DNA of 46,660 bases from Escherichia phage aalborv, in the sequence record NC_049829.1, one strand, 5' to 3'. The translations under genes were made by a program, and so were the position numbers. Every line of letters begins with the position of its first letter. Position 1 is the first letter of the stretch. Positions 1 through 46,660 of this stretch are shown piece by piece. The notes beneath the pieces are model-generated. The model made no database searches. It was not told the DNA's origin and saw only the letters and a program-made list of their open reading frames with translations.

Positions 1-158
1 GCCTCCGCAAATGCTAATGGGTAGTGACCATATGCTACGCGAAGTAGAATCATTGCAGCACCCCAATCCAAATGCATATTGTTTTTCGTTCCGCCTTTTA
101 CCGCCTCGCGTGCGGTTTGTTGTGCCTGATCAAATGCTTTCTTGCTGTATACTACCAT
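1..158 (-). CDS. hypothetical protein, partial (start at 158, continues past window start); N-terminus MVVYSKKAFDQAQQ
   Basis: ATG at 158..156 preceded by GAGGAAA SD; frame open to position 1; downstream of motif-type promoter 185..235; not in ORF track because truncated. Confidence 0.4.
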   Translation of the reverse strand, partial: MVVYSKKAFDQAQQTAREAVKGGTKNNMHLDWGAAMILLRVAYGHYPLAFAE

Positions 159-184
159 TTTTATTTCCTCATGTTCGTTTCGAT

Positions 185-235
185 AAAATAATTATGCCCG
201 ACACAAGGCAGGGCTTTTTAACAAAAAGTGCTATT
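185..235 (-). promoter_or_regulatory. motif-type promoter module (AATAGCACTTTTTGTTAAAA, 22-bp spacer with inverted repeat, -10 CATAAT)
   Basis: Motif at 216..235; -10 at 191..196; hairpin-capable GCCC..GGGC in spacer. Confidence 0.55.
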
Positions 236-470
236 TTGACGCGGATTCGTAAAACTCTTGCAAGTCTTTACCGATCTGCTCATGCCATTTTTCAAGCGGT
301 AGTTTTCTTGTTTCCTCAAAGCTCATATCAAGCGCGCTTGTAAACTCCCACGGATCGCAATCTAATAGCGGTTTTATGAAATCGTTTTTATCAAGCGCCT
401 CGCAAACCATAGCGCGAAATAACAACCACTCTCCAGTTTCATTTAAACAAACGTTTCTTTCTTTCTTCAT
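231..470 (-). CDS. hypothetical protein (79 aa)
   Basis: ORF track; stop codon TAG is embedded in promoter motif 216..235; start coupled to stop of upstream methylase gene. Confidence 0.5.
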   Translation of the reverse strand: MKKERNVCLNETGEWLLFRAMVCEALDKNDFIKPLLDCDPWEFTSALDMSFEETRKLPLEKWHEQIGKDLQEFYESASK

Positions 471-474
471 GGTT

Positions 475-1176
475 TTAGCTCCGTTTCCGTGCGCGACGCT
501 CTGCTACTGACGGGCAAATGTCGCTGATTTTAATGTATCGCGTTTTCTGCTGCTCACCTTCTTTTAGTTCGCGCATGATGAAAATAACGCTGCCTTTGTT
601 GTTGCCCTGCACTGGTTTACCTGTAAGCGCGGAAGTAAACGCCAGGCGTCCGGTGCGGGAATATTCTGTTCCATCCTCCTGGTAAACTTCGCCAGTGATC
701 CAGATGATTTCCGCTGCTCGCTGTTGCGCTTCATAAAACCATCCTGTTGATGTGTCGCAAGGTAACAGCATGTCGATCTGGTTGTTGCGCTCCATTTGCT
801 CAATCGCCTTCTTAACAAATGGCGTAATATTGCTGTACGGTGGATTCAGCCAGATATGCTTATTACTACCCCACCAACGCTTTAAGCAATTTGTTTCCTT
901 GCTGTAGAATTTTTCACATACGGCATTTTCTTTGCTCGCCGCCGCGTCGATGTCATAATCACCGTATTCGCTTTCCATCCATGCGACAAGCTCAGACGGA
1001 GTAGACCACAAATCGCGCACAATGTCCGGCGTATTGCTGCCGTTATAGCGGTTGCCAGTCACTTTGAAATATTGATTTGGTTTAACAGCCTGGTAATGAC
1101 CACCAGTAGCAAGAGCATTGCCAATGAATGTTTCGAGTTCTATTTGTTCAAATGTCACTTCGGTTTCTTTGCTCAT
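475..1176 (-). CDS. DNA N6-adenine methyltransferase (Dam-like)
   Basis: 233 aa with catalytic NPPY motif (HIWLNPPYSNITPF) typical of N6-adenine MTases; preceded by motif-type promoter 1205..1255. Confidence 0.7.
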   Translation of the reverse strand: MSKETEVTFEQIELETFIGNALATGGHYQAVKPNQYFKVTGNRYNGSNTPDIVRDLWSTPSELVAWMESEYGDYDIDAAASKENAVCEKFYSKETNCLKRWWGSNKHIWLNPPYSNITPFVKKAIEQMERNNQIDMLLPCDTSTGWFYEAQQRAAEIIWITGEVYQEDGTEYSRTGRLAFTSALTGKPVQGNNKGSVIFIMRELKEGEQQKTRYIKISDICPSVAERRARKRS

Positions 1177-1204
1177 TTCTTAATTACCTGTTGCTTGTTG
1201 AATT

Positions 1205-1255
1205 GGTGTTATTATGGCGCAATCCTTCGCGCCTGTTTTAACAAAAAGTGCTATT
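1205..1255 (-). promoter_or_regulatory. motif-type promoter module upstream of methylase gene
   Basis: Motif 1236..1255; 22-bp spacer with GGCGCG..CGCGCC inverted repeat; -10 CATAAT 1211..1216. Confidence 0.55.
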
Positions 1256-1670
1256 TCATCATGTATTCTACAGCGATCATGAATTGCTTATATCCGTATG
1301 TAACGGCGGCGAATCCGCCAAGCTCACGAACGCGGCTCAAAAACGCTCTTTGCTCCTTGCTGACTGGTGAAGCCTTTCCCTTTCCTGATTTGTTTACGCG
1401 CTTCATCTCAATTGCCGCAAACGGATAGCGGCCTTTTAATCCAATCAGGATGATGAAATCACTTACTCCCTTAACAAGTCCGGCTTGCTGGTCCATCATT
1501 GCTGTAGCGATCCCCTTGTCGCCCTCGTTTTTCGTATGCCATGCCAGCAATTCAGGGTAGGCATAAGTCAACCATTGAAACGCCCCGATCTGGTGCGATT
1601 CCTCTTTTAGCGTATCTGTCGGATCTCTTTCGTAAAACTCCAGATAATCGCCTTTATCAGTCATTGCCAT
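1251..1670 (-). CDS. VRR-NUC domain nuclease (PD-(D/E)XK-like)
   Basis: 139 aa; D...E-x-K arrangement (SDFIILIG...AAIEMKR) reminiscent of VRR-NUC family; stop TAG inside promoter motif 1236..1255. Confidence 0.5.
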   Translation of the reverse strand: MAMTDKGDYLEFYERDPTDTLKEESHQIGAFQWLTYAYPELLAWHTKNEGDKGIATAMMDQQAGLVKGVSDFIILIGLKGRYPFAAIEMKRVNKSGKGKASPVSKEQRAFLSRVRELGGFAAVTYGYKQFMIAVEYMMK

Positions 1671-5253: not shown

Positions 5254-5269
5254 ATGTCACTGCTACTTT

Positions 5270-5296
5270 TACCCCGCATTGCGGGTTTTTTTTTTG
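5270..5296 (+). terminator. intrinsic terminator after primase gene
   Basis: Stem CCCGC..GCGGG followed by run of 10 T. Confidence 0.6.
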
Positions 5297-5352
5297 CCTT
5301 AGCAAATGCTATTATCTGCATTGACATTAATATGCAACACGGGAGAAAACGC

Positions 5353-5979
5353 ATGGCAATTTACAGAACCGGACAAGCGTCAATGGACGCGCAAGGTTAT
5401 ATCACTGGATACGACACAAAATGGCGAGAGCAACTAACGCTCATTCGCCCTGGTGCAACAATCTTTTTCATTGATGCTCCATTTCAAGCGGCTGTGATCA
5501 GTGAAGTTATCAGCGATACACAAATCCGCGCCATCACAACTGGCGGCGCTGAAATTGGGCGAAGCAACTACATTATTTTGCTGCATGACTCAATAACTGT
5601 TGACGGCCTGGCGCAAGATGTTGCGGAAACGCTGCGTTACTATCAAAGCAAAGAAACTCAGATCGAGGAATCTATTGAATTTCTCAAAAACTTTGACCTA
5701 AAACAGTTGCAAGATCTGGCTAATCAGGGTAAAGGTGATGCAGAGAAAACAGCCAATGATCGTGCTGCTACTGAACAACTGAAAAACGACACTCAACAGA
5801 TAAAGGATTCTGCTGTTGCTGAAACAAACCAGATTAAAGCAGACACTAACGCATTCAAAGAGCAAAAGGCAAAAGTTGACAAGCAACAAGAGGAGATCGA
5901 AACACTTAAATCTGAAATTGCAGATCTCAAAGAGGCGGTGGCGGCGTTACTCGACAAGCCAACAACGCTGGAAAATTAA
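5353..5979 (+). CDS. hypothetical protein with C-terminal coiled coil
   Basis: Start trimmed to ATG 5353 (GGGAGA SD) because track N-terminus spans terminator 5270..5296; C-terminal heptad-like K/E/Q-rich region; followed by terminator 5996..6024. Confidence 0.5.
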   Translation: MAIYRTGQASMDAQGYITGYDTKWREQLTLIRPGATIFFIDAPFQAAVISEVISDTQIRAITTGGAEIGRSNYIILLHDSITVDGLAQDVAETLRYYQSKETQIEESIEFLKNFDLKQLQDLANQGKGDAEKTANDRAATEQLKNDTQQIKDSAVAETNQIKADTNAFKEQKAKVDKQQEEIETLKSEIADLKEAVAALLDKPTTLEN

Positions 5980-41534: not shown

Positions 41535-43118
41535 ATGAATTTTTCGTTTGAAACCAATAAACTAACACCAAAACAAATTATCGAATTAGCTGATGCACAA
41601 GGATTGTCTCCGGTGCGCGTGTCCATTCAGGCAAACGGATACCGTCAATCGTCCAGCTTTTGGGGTGAGGTTAATGATGTTAATAACGGAAACGATCGCT
41701 ACCCTATAATTTCTCTTGGCAATGATGTTGATGTTGTTGGTAAGTTGGCGCGCAACATTGCTCGATCAGTTCAGTTCCCTGAATCATCGGCATATATGCA
41801 TTTTATCGGCTGCGTGTCTGCTGCAATGCTTGGACGCTTCACGGTTGAGTATCACGGAACGGATCAACCAACTGCTCTTTACGTTGTTACAAGTCAGCCT
41901 CCTTCAACTGGTAAATCTGCCGTTAACAGCCTTGCACTTGCTCCTATGGTTGCTGAGGTAGAAAGAATTAATGATCAGCGAAAGAAGGAACGAAAAAAGA
42001 TTCAGGCAAAGTTGGCAGGTCTTGCAAAGGAAATGAAAAGCGAGCGTTCCGGCGCTGATATGGAATCGCTATACCAGGAGAAAGAAGATCTGGAAGAAAA
42101 ACTGGAAAAGATGTGTGACATTGTTTTCCCTGTCTCCGACACCACGCCGGAAGGACTTGCAAGAATCAACAACCGCCAGGGAAACTTTGCTGTAATTTCA
42201 GACGAGGCAACGAGTATTAACAGCCTTTTAGGTCTGACATATGCCAATAGCGAACGTAAAACCAACAGCGAACTTGTGCTAAAAGCATGGGATCATGGTC
42301 ATGTTTCTATAGCTCGTGCAAACGCTGACAACAATATGAGTTTTAAAGCTCTTGGCTGCATGGCGGTAATTGCCCAGGATGAAACAATCAATGCCATCAT
42401 GGACGCAGGATCACGCGGTATCGGTGTAAGTGAGCGTTATTTGCTTGTGCGTGAGGAATCATTTTTAGGTCGTCGAAAGTTTGTTGATGATAACGGTGAT
42501 TCGACTTATGAGCCTGTTGATGGAGAACTGAAAAGCCAATATTTTAAGCTGATCCATAACATAATGAGCGAATCAAACATCCAGCTTAAGATCAGCAAAT
42601 CAGCAATGCGAGTGCTTAACATGGCTCGTCAGGAGATGGAACCGCACCTTGCCGATGGCGGAAAGTATTCTCATACAATGCTGCGCGGCGCGCTTGGCAA
42701 AATGGATAAGCAGGTGATCAGAATTGCTTCGGTTTTGCACACTATCCGCAATTGGTTTAATCCTGGCGGATACCCTCAAAAGTCGAAAGAGATTGAGGTT
42801 GAAACCGTTCAGGAAGCACTGCTGATGTTTAGCGAGTTGAGCAAAACATACATTAGCGCCGCCAACGCTTCTGGCTATGCTGGTGATGATGCTGAAATGG
42901 GTAAACTAATCGAGATTATCACTCGACACGGTAAGGCTAACAAGGGAATCTTGAATGTGCGAGCCATATATGAGGCTGCGCGAAAAGTTAAGCCTTTTGT
43001 TGGTCAGGCTGGCGTAATGAAGCGCATGGAAACGCAACTGCTGCCGATGCTTGAAGAAAGAAATTATATTTGTGTGATTAATGGCGTTGTTTTTGTAAAT
43101 CCAACATTGCTGGGGTAA
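41535..43118 (+). CDS. P-loop NTPase domain protein (527 aa), function unknown
   Basis: Walker A-like TSQPPSTGKSAV; AAGGAG SD; largest protein of the early block. Confidence 0.6.
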   Translation: MNFSFETNKLTPKQIIELADAQGLSPVRVSIQANGYRQSSSFWGEVNDVNNGNDRYPIISLGNDVDVVGKLARNIARSVQFPESSAYMHFIGCVSAAMLGRFTVEYHGTDQPTALYVVTSQPPSTGKSAVNSLALAPMVAEVERINDQRKKERKKIQAKLAGLAKEMKSERSGADMESLYQEKEDLEEKLEKMCDIVFPVSDTTPEGLARINNRQGNFAVISDEATSINSLLGLTYANSERKTNSELVLKAWDHGHVSIARANADNNMSFKALGCMAVIAQDETINAIMDAGSRGIGVSERYLLVREESFLGRRKFVDDNGDSTYEPVDGELKSQYFKLIHNIMSESNIQLKISKSAMRVLNMARQEMEPHLADGGKYSHTMLRGALGKMDKQVIRIASVLHTIRNWFNPGGYPQKSKEIEVETVQEALLMFSELSKTYISAANASGYAGDDAEMGKLIEIITRHGKANKGILNVRAIYEAARKVKPFVGQAGVMKRMETQLLPMLEERNYICVINGVVFVNPTLLG

Positions 43119-43120
43119 TT

Positions 43121-43513
43121 ATGTTTCTTCTGGATCTGTATCGCTGGTGTGAGTCATTCGAATGGTTTACACGTCAACATATAGCGAAATTTATATTTCA
43201 GCATAGAGAATGTGAGCGGCTCGCAAGGGCCGCAGGATTTACGCCGAGGATGTTTGCAACTGCCGTTTCAAAAGAATTTTGCTCAAGAATGATGACCGCT
43301 GGTTATCTTGATGGAGTTGGTGGAAAGTTCTGGTGTAAGAAAGGATCAGCAAATCGCCCTTTCTCGTTTGAACTTTACAGCCTGGAAGGTATGCAAAACG
43401 AATGGGTAAGAGATGTTTTACGGATCGGAGAAATGAGCGATGAAGAATTGTTTACGTCAAATGCTAATAGACAAAATATTGAAGTTCTGCGCCGTAAGTT
43501 CAATCTCACATGA
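43121..43513 (+). CDS. hypothetical early protein (130 aa)
   Basis: ORF track; GGGG SD. Confidence 0.5.
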   Translation: MFLLDLYRWCESFEWFTRQHIAKFIFQHRECERLARAAGFTPRMFATAVSKEFCSRMMTAGYLDGVGGKFWCKKGSANRPFSFELYSLEGMQNEWVRDVLRIGEMSDEELFTSNANRQNIEVLRRKFNLT

Positions 43514-43933: not shown

Positions 43934-43960
43934 AGGAGGCGTTAAGCCTCCTTTTTGTTG
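43934..43960. terminator. bidirectional terminator between rightward early array and lysis cassette
   Basis: Stem AGGAGGC..GCCTCCT followed by TTTTTGTTG; spanin stop codon lies in the loop. Confidence 0.6.
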
Positions 43961-44340
43961 CCTTTGCGGTAGGAAAAGTAAAGCATTGACAAAAGACCAC
44001 TAAAAATTGCCGCGCAATAGATTATAGGATCGTACCAATTCCTTTGTCCACCTTGCACGACCTGGATTTTATCAGCCTTGATGGTGTTAGCCTGAATGGT
44101 TGACGTAGTAAAATCCTTCTTGCTGGAAGTGTCCACCTTATCAACCGCAGATTCCTTTATTGTAGTTTCCTGTTTTGTGCTGGTGTCCTGCTTTGCGGTA
44201 ACGCCAACGGTCTGCTTTACGTTCTCCGCTCCTGCCTGTGCTGTGATTTCCGGCTTACTACCGATTAATCCGGTCAGTGGCATAACGCTTGAACATCCAG
44301 ACAAAATAACAGCGATCACGATTATTGATAACTTTCTCAT
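43942..44340 (-). CDS. unimolecular spanin-like lipoprotein (outer-membrane lipoprotein with C-terminal TM anchor)
   Basis: Lipobox LSGCSS after signal peptide; C-terminal TM helix IIYCAAIFSGLLSMLYF; last gene of lysis cassette. Confidence 0.6.
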   Translation of the reverse strand: MRKLSIIVIAVILSGCSSVMPLTGLIGSKPEITAQAGAENVKQTVGVTAKQDTSTKQETTIKESAVDKVDTSSKKDFTTSTIQANTIKADKIQVVQGGQRNWYDPIIYCAAIFSGLLSMLYFSYRKGNKKEA

Positions 44341-44342
44341 AA

Positions 44343-44831
44343 TTACAGATCCTTAATGCAATATTTAAATTCCACAGCGCGGCGGTTTCGCAGTCCTTTA
44401 GACGTTTCTTTCTTTCCTGTTTTTGGATTGGTGTATTTTGTCCATCGCCATAACTGCTCGCACGCTTCCATATAACGACCGTTATTAATCAGCTTAAGCA
44501 TGGTTGAATTTCTAAAAGCACCAGTGCCAGCATTGTATGTGAATGAATACATTGCCGCGCGCATTGTATCAGGAATATCAACATTAACACGCTTATCAAC
44601 TTCATCCTTTGCGATCTTGATATGCTTTGCCAGTAGCGCATCGCATTCTCTCTGCGTGTACGTCTTACCTGGTATTACGTCAGGTCCAGTTATTCCGGCG
44701 CAAACCGTCCATATTCCAGCAATATCTTTGTACGGCTTATATTTTACTCCTTCTATTTCCTCCAGCAACGGAGAAGTAAGAGCAAGAGCAACGCCAAAAG
44801 CCGCAGCGGTCACTCTTTGTTTTATGCTCAT
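44343..44831 (-). CDS. endolysin, GH24 lysozyme with N-terminal SAR-like signal-anchor
   Basis: E-x8-D-x5-T catalytic pattern ([22 protein letters not shown]); Gly/Ala-rich weakly hydrophobic N-terminus. Confidence 0.75.
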
Positions 44832-45046
44832 TATTTACCCCTGATTTCAATAGCTTTCTTAATATCTCCGCATTCAAGCGCGTCACGTAGCGCCTTACTA
44901 TCACGCCAGCGAAGATAAGCCCCCCACATACCAAATGCAGCCATCAAAACGAAGCTGGCTATTGCAATGGTTGTTTGACCAGTTACCGCGCCAGTGATTG
45001 ACGCGCCGCCAGTGCCGGAAGTTGCAACGTTTAAAAAATCTTTCAT
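44831..45046 (-). CDS. holin / pinholin candidate
   Basis: 71 aa with TM helix [20 protein letters not shown] and charged C-terminus; overlaps endolysin start. Confidence 0.6.
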
Positions 45047-45118
45047 GATTAGATCTCCTGTAAATAAAAGTCAACAATTAATTGATTGTATCCTAACCAT
45101 TGAACGCATAAAAAGGAA

Positions 45119-45144
45119 TAAAAAAAAGGCAAAGCAAAATGCCT
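45119..45144 (-). terminator. intrinsic terminator upstream of lysis cassette
   Basis: Stem AGGCA..TGCCT followed by 8 T on minus strand. Confidence 0.5.
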
Positions 45145-45192
45145 CGCCCAATTAAATTTATGATTTATATTGGTATTTTAATAATTAAAAGT

Positions 45193-46311
45193 TCAATCAG
45201 CCATTTCTGGATAATGCATAAATCGCCCTACTTCTCCGTATTCTTTATCGTAAACAATAACAGCCGCACGGCGACGGGAACGCCATCCACCGCGCGCCGC
45301 ATATGCATCTTTTGCCGCCATAGTGCTATGCACTTCAACAATGCCCAGGCTTGTTTCAGTTACTGTCTGATTATGCCAGTGCCCTACGTGAGCATACATC
45401 ATTTTTGAATTTCCGAAGTCTTCGCGCCAGTCTGCCGCGCACATCATGAGCAATGTTTCAGGCTTGCGGATAGTGTGCCCATGATGGTATGCCAGGAATG
45501 TTTTGCCATATTGTGTGTGATGAACTACTCGCGGAGACACATCAACATGCACTCGCGGCTCATTCTCATATGCTGCCGCCATTGCTGCGCGCAACCAGAT
45601 CATGCCGCTTTGGTCGTGGTTGCCTTCAATTATCTGAATCTCGACGTTTTTGTGTTTTGATAACAGCTTTGCTATTGCTCGACGCACTGACCGGATGGCA
45701 ACGTAAACCAGTTTTGCATATCGACTATCTTGATCCAATACGTGACCGCTTGCAGGTGTTACCGCCTCCAGTCCGTCGCTGTGAAGCATATCACCACCAA
45801 TCAGCAAGACAGCTTTTTCACTATCCGGCGCGCACTGGATGGAATAATCAATGAAATTATTCATTACGCGCTCTGCTGTTGCTGTATCCCAATTCTCTCC
45901 GCATTCATGCTTATGCGCCATTGCGCCCAAGTGCATATCAAAGATCGGATACAGTGATAACGTCTCGCTATAATCCTTTTGTGATTCTGGTTGCGGATCA
46001 AGTCGCGGAACTTCTTCGCTAAATGCATCCATAGCGGCCTGCATTAATGCTTCTAACTGTTCGCGGTCCTTGCTTGTCTTAATCCATGTCATAACCACAT
46101 TGCCATCTTGATCAATTAGCTTTGATTCTCCAGTAACACCAAAACCAGGTGATCCGATGGTTGTAACTTTACCTTGCTTTGCTAATCGTGCCGCGCGGCG
46201 CTCAATGCTGCGAACGTTCATGCCATACTCATTAGCGATCTGCTTATATGTCTTTCCCTGCTTGCGCTCATTGATAAATTGTTCATCTGTGATTTTGATT
46301 TGCTTCATCAA
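45193..46311 (-). CDS. HTH domain fused to calcineurin-like metallophosphoesterase
   Basis: N-terminal HTH-like TYKQIANEYGMNVRSIERR; MPP motifs D-x-H (FDMHLG), GDxxD (GGDMLHSD), GNHD (EGNHDQ), GH-x-H (GHWHN). Confidence 0.6.
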   Translation of the reverse strand: MMKQIKITDEQFINERKQGKTYKQIANEYGMNVRSIERRAARLAKQGKVTTIGSPGFGVTGESKLIDQDGNVVMTWIKTSKDREQLEALMQAAMDAFSEEVPRLDPQPESQKDYSETLSLYPIFDMHLGAMAHKHECGENWDTATAERVMNNFIDYSIQCAPDSEKAVLLIGGDMLHSDGLEAVTPASGHVLDQDSRYAKLVYVAIRSVRRAIAKLLSKHKNVEIQIIEGNHDQSGMIWLRAAMAAAYENEPRVHVDVSPRVVHHTQYGKTFLAYHHGHTIRKPETLLMMCAADWREDFGNSKMMYAHVGHWHNQTVTETSLGIVEVHSTMAAKDAYAARGGWRSRRRAAVIVYDKEYGEVGRFMHYPEMAD

Positions 46312-46406
46312 AAATTCTCCTTATTTCATTATGACAACGTATACAATAGAGAACGCCATCATAACAGGTAAGGGCAAAAGTAACAAACGCCACATGATAA
46401 TAATCC

Positions 46407-46649
46407 TCATTTGTAGTATTTGCGCGGCTCGCGAATTTTCGCCATAGCCTCTTTGAAATCAATCTTTGTTGGTATTGCTGGTACGCGATGCATCTTGCGC
46501 GGTCGTTCATTGAGAAATGTCATTTTGTCGCCGCTGATAATGCTTATGTCAGCAATATCAAAATATTTCGCTATCCTGGATATGTCTTCTGCGATCCCGC
46601 ATTCCTTTGCGTGATCCCATACAGCCTGCCTACCTTGTTCAACCTTCAT
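46407..46649 (-). CDS. hypothetical protein (80 aa)
   Basis: ORF track; start 11 nt from window end, so upstream signals not visible. Confidence 0.4.
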   Translation of the reverse strand: MKVEQGRQAVWDHAKECGIAEDISRIAKYFDIADISIISGDKMTFLNERPRKMHRVPAIPTKIDFKEAMAKIREPRKYYK

Positions 46650-46660
46650 GCTTATAATAT

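What the first reader, a model, noticed from the sequence alone, without database searches (positions are those of the whole stretch)
45193..46311. HTH-metallophosphoesterase fusion adjacent to the lysis cassette
A 372-aa protein combines an N-terminal HTH-like segment with a complete set of calcineurin-like phosphoesterase motifs. This domain combination, and its position directly upstream of the holin, is unusual; it could be a DNA-bound phosphatase or nuclease, or a regulator of lysis timing.
Basis: inference. Interest (0 to 1): 0.45.

Follow-up and report, generated by a model that had tools for sequence, protein, structure and literature searches.

The report
T1-like phage HTH-tethered phosphoesterase nuclease
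This is the conserved "DNA repair exonuclease / phosphoesterase" gene of T1-like phages, a DNA-binding helix-turn-helix fused to an Mre11/SbcD-type metal-dependent phosphoesterase; it is most likely a DNA nuclease of the early DNA-metabolism genes (a candidate for the phage's still unassigned host-chromosome degradation), not a lysis regulator, and both the gene family and its place beside the lysis genes are already catalogued.

Summary
The ORF is real. It lies on the minus strand at 45193-46308 (371 aa from the ATG; 372 from the TTG). It has an N-terminal three-helix HTH, a floppy linker, a small beta-hairpin/helix module and a metallophosphoesterase core with every catalytic motif invariant across the family. 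The window is a T1-like coliphage (Drexlerviridae, Hanrivervirus). The protein is 99.7% identical to phage haarsle gp57 and matches PHROG 704 end to end.

The architecture is not unusual. It is found in about 2,000 phage genomes and in E. coli prophages. The order exonuclease-holin-endolysin-spanin is published for 508 of 522 Drexlerviridae. A terminator-like hairpin separates the gene from the holin in four diverged relatives, and in other phage groups the gene sits in replication, nucleotide-metabolism or tail regions. There is no support for a lysis-timing role.

The nearest folds are PolD DP1, Mre11 and SbcD; Ser/Thr phosphatases are far lower. A 58%-identical orthologue (Bas01_0050) is toxic in E. 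coli, dispensable, and mutated in DRT7 escapers.

Best reading: an HTH-tethered DNA nuclease. It is plausibly the unidentified T1 host-DNA-degrading enzyme, analogous to T5 A1. No biochemistry exists.

The parts
45193..46308 (-). CDS of the HTH-metallophosphoesterase (371 aa from ATG 46308; stop 45193-45195; alternative TTG start at 46309-46311 gives 372 aa)
   Evidence: 99.7% identical to phage haarsle gp57; PHROG 704 E=3.6e-150 over residues 5-370
46317..46322 (-). Shine-Dalgarno AAGGAG, 8 nt upstream of the ATG
   Evidence: read directly from the sequence
46358..46386 (-). promoter-like site TTGTTA-17-TATGAT with TG (a consensus match only; function not shown)
46171..46296 (-). N-terminal helix-turn-helix domain (residues 5-46; helices 8-16, 21-28, 32-44)
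   Evidence: the most divergent part of the family (median 17% identity vs 40% for the core)
46138..46170 (-). flexible linker (residues 47-57, pLDDT about 57)
46012..46137 (-). beta-hairpin plus helix module (residues 58-99) with near-invariant G69 and W75; role unknown
45196..45963 (-). metallophosphoesterase core (residues 116-371). Motif I D124/H126 at 45931-45939; motif II D173/H176 at 45781-45792; motif III N230/H231 at 45616-45621; motif IV H276 at 45481-45483; motif V H310/H312 at 45373-45381
45117..45149 (-). terminator-like hairpin (10-bp stem, 45149-45127) followed by a T-run, between this gene and the holin
   Evidence: equivalent hairpins in T1, Bas01 and TLS
43942..45046 (-). neighbouring lysis cassette, listed as context and not as part of the system: holin 44831-45046, endolysin 44343-44831, Rz-like spanin 43942-44340
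   Evidence: PHROG 2877, 7 and 1804; annotation of haarsle

Best explanation
The gene encodes a two-metal (probably Mn2+) phosphodiesterase of the Mre11/SbcD/PolD-DP1 structural type. It acts on DNA and is held on DNA by its N-terminal HTH through a flexible linker. It is the last gene of the early DNA-metabolism operon (helicase, VRR-NUC, Dam, three small genes, then this gene; minus strand, running across the window ends). It is not part of the lysis cassette.

Its most likely physiological role is attack on the host chromosome. This would be the T1/TLS-type degradation of host DNA with re-use of the nucleotides, for which no gene has been assigned. It would be analogous to the T5 A1 metallophosphatase.

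Shown: the ORF, the domain architecture, the intact metal-binding motifs, the fold neighbours, the synteny, and published genetics on an orthologue (dispensable, toxic, DRT7 sensitivity determinant).

Inferred: nuclease activity, DNA binding by the HTH, and the role in host-DNA degradation. I put nuclease activity on DNA at about 0.65 and the host-degradation role at about 0.35.
For: All MPE catalytic residues are invariant, with the GDxxH and GNHD forms typical of Mre11/SbcD. The model is confident (pLDDT 92.8). The best matches by two methods are PolD DP1 proofreading exonuclease, Mre11 and SbcD. Weak profile hits go to SbcD/Mre11 and the ligase-associated nuclease MPE/PdeM.

The HTH is present throughout the family.

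Orthologue Bas01_0050 (58% identity, syntenic): DRT7 escapers carry missense or frameshift mutations in it, and its expression is toxic in E. coli (bioRxiv 10.64898/2026.02.16.706125).

T1 and TLS degrade the host genome and re-use its nucleotides, and the responsible gene product is unidentified (PMC11447400). T5 A1, a predicted metallophosphatase said to resemble DSB-repair nucleases and polymerase proofreading subunits, is necessary and sufficient for host DNA degradation. Relatives of A1 carry N-terminal HTHs.

Polynucleotide kinase and dNMP kinase genes often follow the exonuclease in Drexlerviridae. A PNKP-phosphatase and a P-loop kinase follow it in Kagunavirus. An m6-dAMP-sensing defence that responds to chromosome degradation restricts a Tunavirinae phage.

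Against: Sequence relation to T5 A1 is limited to motif III (hhalign 27%).

The window holds other candidate nucleases: VRR-NUC and the RecE-like exonuclease VIII.

The gene also occurs in temperate lambdoid prophages next to the replicative helicase, where wholesale host-DNA destruction is less expected.

I could not map the classical T1 host-degradation mutants to this ORF; the T1 genome paper is not held.
Confidence: 0.55

Rival explanations
1. An Mre11-like end-processing nuclease or phosphoesterase that serves the phage's own replication, recombination or DNA repair. Examples would be trimming blocked or damaged ends, or processing ends for Erf/RecE recombination-dependent replication. 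It would not destroy host DNA.
For: In E. coli lambdoid prophages and phage mEp013 the gene lies in the PR replication operon, 19 nt upstream of a DnaB-type helicase. In Campylobacter phage F374 it follows DNA ligase and a Holliday-junction resolvase. In Vibrio phage F27 it follows SSB. Polynucleotide kinase/phosphatase neighbours fit end healing. The fold is that of Mre11/SbcD/DP1.
Against: The orthologue is dispensable for plaque formation and strongly toxic when expressed alone. There is no Rad50/SbcC-like partner. The phage already has RecE-like, Erf and SSB functions.
Confidence: 0.25
2. A phosphodiesterase for a non-DNA substrate, such as cyclic or linear signalling nucleotides of defence systems or other nucleotide derivatives. 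The HTH would then serve autoregulation or localisation.
Against: No PADLOC or anti-defence family match. The top structural neighbours are nucleases. A fused HTH and toxicity in uninfected cells fit a DNA substrate better.
Confidence: 0.07
3. A regulator of lysis timing, or a member of the lysis cassette.
For: The exonuclease-holin-endolysin-spanin order is conserved in 508/522 Drexlerviridae. Lysis genes are also within about 2 kb in Dhillonvirus, RcPutin and Vibrio F27. No consensus sigma-70 promoter was detected between the hairpin and the holin, so read-through cannot be excluded.
Against: A terminator-like hairpin lies between the gene and the holin in 4 of 4 diverged relatives. HNH, SH3 and kinase genes are frequently inserted between them. 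Order and distance to lysis genes vary, or the linkage is absent, in other lineages. Frameshift mutants of the orthologue still form plaques. Nothing in the fold relates to holin or antiholin functions.
Confidence: 0.02
4. An ordinary Ser/Thr (PPP-type) protein phosphatase like lambda NinI.
For: It belongs to the same calcineurin-like superfamily, and phage-encoded examples exist (established knowledge).
Confidence: 0.03

Closest known systems
Orthologues in sequenced T1-like phages: haarsle gp57, TLS gp66 ('proof-reading exonuclease'), T1 AZS32451, Bas01_0050 (PHROG 704 'DNA repair exonuclease')
   Same: Same protein family and architecture, and the same position at the end of the helicase-Dam operon upstream of the lysis cassette. 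Identity is 99.7% to haarsle and 58% to Bas01_0050.
   Different: Nothing of substance. In T1 and Bas01 an HNH gene and a small (SH3) gene sit between it and the holin; here there are none.
Mre11 / SbcD nucleases
   Different: No capping domain and no Rad50/SbcC partner gene. It has an extra N-terminal HTH and a hairpin/helix module. Sequence similarity is only marginal (E 0.26-0.9).
Archaeal PolD small subunit DP1 (3'-5' proofreading exonuclease)
   Different: No OB domain and no DP2 partner. The phage encodes no D-family polymerase.
Phage T5 A1 (pre-early metallophosphatase, necessary and sufficient for host DNA degradation)
   Same: A phage MPE with a full motif set. It is toxic in E. coli, is an early gene, and has relatives with an N-terminal HTH.
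   Different: 556 aa with a roughly 300-residue N-terminal region. It is essential in T5 and also needed for second-step DNA transfer. Profile-profile similarity is restricted to motif III (probability 27%). PHROG 1745, not 704.
Ligase-associated nuclease MPE / PdeM (Pseudomonas putida 6nvo)
   Different: About 200 aa with no HTH. The scores are far below the family cut-off (20 vs 150 bits).

Membership tests
Calcineurin-like metallophosphoesterase superfamily | Motifs DxH, GD, GNH(D/E), H, GHxH that bind two metal ions | tested here: met
   D124, H126, D173, N230, H231, H276 and H312 invariant, H310 at least 90% conserved, in 118 relatives
Calcineurin-like metallophosphoesterase superfamily | Four-layer alpha/beta sandwich MPE fold | tested here: met
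Calcineurin-like metallophosphoesterase superfamily | Pfam PF00149 gathering score | tested here: not met
   14.6 bits against a cut-off of 21.5. 28 of 118 relatives match at E<0.01. The family is a divergent branch that the Pfam model barely reaches
PHROG 704 ('DNA repair exonuclease') | Full-length match to the family profile | tested here: met
   E=3.6e-150, residues 5-370 on profile positions 3-389 of 390
Mre11/SbcD nuclease family | MPE nuclease domain with GDxxH and GNHD | tested here: met
Mre11/SbcD nuclease family | C-terminal capping domain | tested here: not met
   The protein ends at residue 371, directly after the MPE core
Mre11/SbcD nuclease family | Partner Rad50/SbcC ATPase gene | tested here: not met
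   The ORFs of 500 aa or more are a helicase, tail tip J, tape measure, TerL and a second helicase. There is no SMC-like ATPase
Mre11/SbcD nuclease family | Mn2+-dependent exo/endonuclease activity | not testable with these tools
   Needs purified protein
T5 A1 family (PHROG 1745) | Sequence or profile homology over the A1 length | tested here: not met
   BLASTP E=0.31. hhalign 16-27% probability over 19-22 columns around motif III
T5 A1 family (PHROG 1745) | Necessary and sufficient for host DNA degradation | not testable with these tools
   Only indirect evidence: the orthologue is toxic, and T1/TLS degrade host DNA through an unknown gene
PPP Ser/Thr protein phosphatases (lambda NinI type) | GDxHG, GDxVDRG and GNHE motifs | tested here: not met
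Helix-turn-helix DNA-binding domains | Tri-helical HTH recognised by profile and structure | tested here: met
   Sub-threshold for this sequence (HTH_28 18.4 vs 25 bits). Relatives reach E=1.5e-9. Three helices are modelled at pLDDT 81-95. The profile aligns to GerE/LuxR HTHs
Helix-turn-helix DNA-binding domains | DNA binding | not testable with these tools
   Needs EMSA or ChIP
Phage lysis cassette | Co-transcription and conserved linkage with holin and endolysin across lineages | tested here: inconclusive
   Linkage is conserved within Drexlerviridae (508/522) but absent or rearranged elsewhere. A terminator-like hairpin intervenes in 4 of 4 relatives. Read-through was not measured

The most novel reading that the evidence does not exclude
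This HTH-metallophosphoesterase is the long-unidentified nuclease behind host-chromosome degradation and nucleotide recycling in T1-like phages. Its loss would then give the classical high-transduction, degradation-defective T1 phenotype. HTH-tethered MPE nucleases (PHROG 704 and, independently, the T5 A1 family) would be a general phage host-takeover device whose activity is what defence systems such as DRT7 perceive.
Probability: 0.3. Interest if true: 0.6.

Novelty: already known. Interest (0 to 1): 0.33.

Why it matters
As a sequence feature it is ordinary. It is a catalogued, near-universal Drexlerviridae gene whose neighbourhood has been described.

Its value lies in function. No member has been characterised biochemically. 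A 2024 re-annotation of TLS states that the gene responsible for T1/TLS host-genome degradation is still unknown. A 2026 preprint shows that an orthologue is toxic, dispensable and a determinant of sensitivity to the DRT7 reverse-transcriptase defence.

Identifying it as the host-DNA nuclease would do three things. It would assign a 40-year-old phenotype. It would explain why generalized transduction by T1-like phages is limited. It would give a defined trigger for studying DRT7 and other damage-sensing defences. It also matters for phage therapy, because deleting it could change the risk of transduction.

Tried and rejected
1. Homology to T5 A1. BLASTP, profile against sequence and profile against profile align only motif III. 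I rejected family membership and kept A1 as a functional analogy.

2. PDB sequence searches with the protein and with the family profile gave nothing significant. Only fold comparison was informative.

3. PADLOC gave no hit. NCBIfam gave only a far sub-threshold PdeM hit.

4. A conserved partner gene. Flanking small proteins from 10 lineages, compared all against all and scanned against Pfam, share no family. I rejected the idea of a dedicated immunity or inhibitor partner.

5. A link between the HTH and the other reported DRT7 trigger, Bas63_035. That protein is a 99-aa Xre-type HTH with only generic similarity (14% probability). Rejected.

6. The search for related loci with the family alignment failed because no stretch was conserved enough. 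The afdb50 fold library was unavailable.

7. Mapping the classical T1 host-degradation mutants. The T1 genome paper is not held and the text searches were unproductive, so this is unresolved.

8. Other escape-mutant papers (Stokar-Avihail preprint, Gabija preprint) do not mention this gene family.

Full report
**Observation.** The window holds an uninterrupted minus-strand ORF from 46311 (TTG) or 46308 (ATG) to the stop at 45193-45195. An AAGGAG lies 8 nt upstream of the ATG, so 371 aa is the likelier product. On the same strand downstream lie a 71-aa holin, a 162-aa endolysin and a 132-aa Rz-like spanin (PHROG 2877, 7 and 1804). It omitted that the gene is on the minus strand and that 146 nt separate it from the holin.

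**Origin of the window.** The protein is 99.7% identical to gp57 of Escherichia phage haarsle (Drexlerviridae, Tempevirinae, Hanrivervirus). That protein is annotated 'putative phosphoesterase' or 'DNA repair exonuclease'. The window end joined to the window start is colinear with haarsle at 96.6% identity over 2,963 nt. The window therefore looks like a complete, circularly permuted T1-like genome. The gene closes a minus-strand operon that runs across the ends: helicase (3768-1657), VRR-NUC, Dam, three small genes, then this gene.

**Family.** The protein matches PHROG 704 end to end (E=3.6e-150). tblastn finds it in 2,039 of 50,697 phage records: Drexlerviridae, Dhillonvirus, Jerseyvirus, Kagunavirus, and Vibrio, Rhodobacter, Microcystis, Campylobacter and Flavobacterium phages. 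An exhaustive HMMER search finds 4,606 clusters at 50% identity. It also occurs in E. coli lambdoid prophages and in phages mEp010 and mEp013. In 118 full-length relatives of 30-95% identity, 116-152 residues always precede motif I. The N-terminal module is therefore a constant feature, although it is the most divergent part (median 17% identity against 40% for the core). A few short members, such as the 317-aa Campylobacter phage protein, lack it.

**Domains.** Pfam alone is weak for this sequence (HTH_28 E=0.0023; Metallophos E=0.047). Across the family, 28 members hit Metallophos. Many hit HTH families: HTH_1 23 members, Sigma70_r4_2 21 (best E=1.5e-9), HTH_28 16, HTH_8 15, GerE 7 (best E=2.4e-8).

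The alignment shows invariant D124, H126, D173, N230, H231, H276, G309 and H312, and near-invariant H176 and H310. This is the complete two-metal motif set in the GDxxH and GNHD forms typical of Mre11/SbcD. There is also a family-specific conserved loop, TPxSGHxLDxDxR.

The AlphaFold2 model is confident (mean pLDDT 92.8). It shows three helices (8-16, 21-28, 32-44), a floppy linker (pLDDT about 57), a beta-hairpin plus helix (58-97), and an MPE core from 116 to 371 at pLDDT 96-98.

There is no capping domain. No Rad50/SbcC-like gene is among the large ORFs. The protein therefore resembles these nucleases but is not a member of the Mre11/SbcD family.

**Position next to the lysis genes.**
- Within Drexlerviridae the order exonuclease-holin-endolysin-spanin is published as a persistent feature of 508 of 522 genomes. 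SH3 (188 genomes), HNH, polynucleotide kinase or dNMP kinase genes are sometimes inserted. [quoted passage not shown]
- I confirmed the insertions in T1 and Bas01 and the direct adjacency in TLS.
- In all four diverged genomes examined, a terminator-like hairpin with a T-run lies between this gene and the holin. I found no consensus sigma-70 promoter in the remaining spacer, so read-through cannot be excluded.
- Outside the family the linkage is loose or absent. In lambdoid prophages the gene lies between an ANT/Bro gene and a DnaB-type helicase, 19 nt upstream of the helicase.
- In Jerseyvirus and Kagunavirus it is in a small divergent island among tail genes.
- In Campylobacter phage F374 it comes after DNA ligase.
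- In a Proteus phage it is near dUTPase and dCMP deaminase.
- In Vibrio F27 it lies between SSB and a later endolysin.
- In RcPutin and Dhillonvirus it lies downstream of the lysis genes.

The recurrent proximity to lysis genes is best explained by both sitting at module boundaries. Nothing supports a role in lysis timing.

**Published genetics.** Bas01_0050 of BASEL phage Bas1 is the syntenic orthologue (58% identity). Spontaneous Bas1 escapers of the DRT7/UG10 reverse-transcriptase defence carry missense or frameshift mutations in it. Its expression is toxic in E. coli. The authors call it a putative nucleic-acid-targeting phosphoesterase (bioRxiv 10.64898/2026.02.16.706125). The gene is therefore dispensable for plaque formation, harmful to the host, and functionally perceived by a defence system that is also activated by lambda Gam.

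**Mechanistic reading.** T1 and TLS degrade the host genome and re-use its nucleotides. The 2024 TLS re-annotation states that the responsible early gene product has not been identified (PMC11447400). That same paper lists the orthologue gp66 merely as a 'proof-reading exonuclease'.

In T5 the predicted metallophosphatase A1 is necessary and sufficient for host DNA degradation and is toxic. It is described as resembling DSB-repair nucleases and polymerase proofreading subunits (bioRxiv 10.64898/2026.04.02.716235). These are the same neighbours I find here.

A1 is not a detectable homologue beyond motif III. However, A1 relatives of 46-48% identity carry N-terminal HTHs above Pfam thresholds. 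The HTH-plus-MPE design therefore recurs.

Nucleotide-salvage or end-healing genes often follow the gene: PNK and dNMP kinase in Drexlerviridae, and a PNKP phosphatase and a P-loop kinase in Kagunavirus. A defence that senses m6-dAMP released by chromosome degradation restricts T-even phages, T5 and a Tunavirinae phage.

Taken together, the best explanation is an HTH-tethered DNA nuclease of the early DNA-metabolism module, plausibly the T1-type host-DNA-degrading enzyme.

The main rival is an Mre11-like end-processing enzyme for the phage's own replication, recombination or repair. The replication-module context in lambdoid prophages and the ligase, SSB and PNKP neighbours favour it.

**Verdict.** The feature is already catalogued and its synteny is published, so novelty is low. 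The residual interest is functional and directly testable.

Noticed in passing
window 1-1300 and 45001-46660: The window end and start are contiguous in the related phage haarsle (96.6% identity over 2,963 nt across the junction). The window looks like a complete, circularly permuted T1-like genome of 46.66 kb, and the helicase-VRR-NUC-Dam-...-phosphoesterase operon runs across its ends.
   Followed up: yes
window 5254-5979 (+): The lateral tail-fibre ORF is only 241 aa and matches N-terminal parts of tail-fibre PHROGs. The haarsle homologue is 683 aa and the genome here is about 2 kb shorter. This may be a truncated or exchanged distal fibre.
   Followed up: no
window 44343-45046 (-): The endolysin begins with a hydrophobic stretch ([23 protein letters not shown]), as in SAR endolysins. 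TLS and KanT1 orthologues are annotated pinholin / SAR endolysin / u-spanin. This genome has no SH3 gene between the exonuclease and the holin.
   Followed up: partly
L002 (T5 A1) and proteins P0342, P0345, P0372: Relatives of the T5 A1 host-DNA-degradation protein (46-48% identity over 87% of A1) carry N-terminal HTH domains above Pfam gathering scores (HTH_23, HTH_7, CENP-B_N). T5 A1 itself has none and works with the separate DNA-binding protein A2.
   Followed up: partly
L013 3501-5670 (Kagunavirus Golestan): The homologue is followed, with 4-nt overlaps, by a PNKP-type HAD phosphatase (72.7 bits) and a P-loop kinase-like protein. The trio sits as a divergent island inside the tail gene cluster.
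   Followed up: partly
L015-L017 6001-8559 (E. coli prophages): In lambdoid prophages integrated next to an ogt-like gene, the homologue lies between an ANT/Bro antirepressor-like gene and a DnaB-type helicase (19-nt gap). The order in the PR operon is Lin1244_N initiator, ANT, phosphoesterase, helicase, NinB.
   Followed up: partly
phage records MG065657 (hit H32) and protein P0050: 'Campylobacter phage C4' (49.9 kb, 94.9% identical protein) and 'Streptococcus phage MBBL140' (79% identical, 49-kb contig) carry this coliphage-type gene. The host labels look doubtful; these could be contaminating T1-like phages.
   Followed up: no
window 41535-43513 (+): A 527-aa helicase/ATPase (PHROG 2373) is followed by a 130-aa protein of unknown function (PHROG 2794; 'HTH domain-containing protein' in TLS). 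The pair converges on the lysis cassette from the opposite strand.
   Followed up: no
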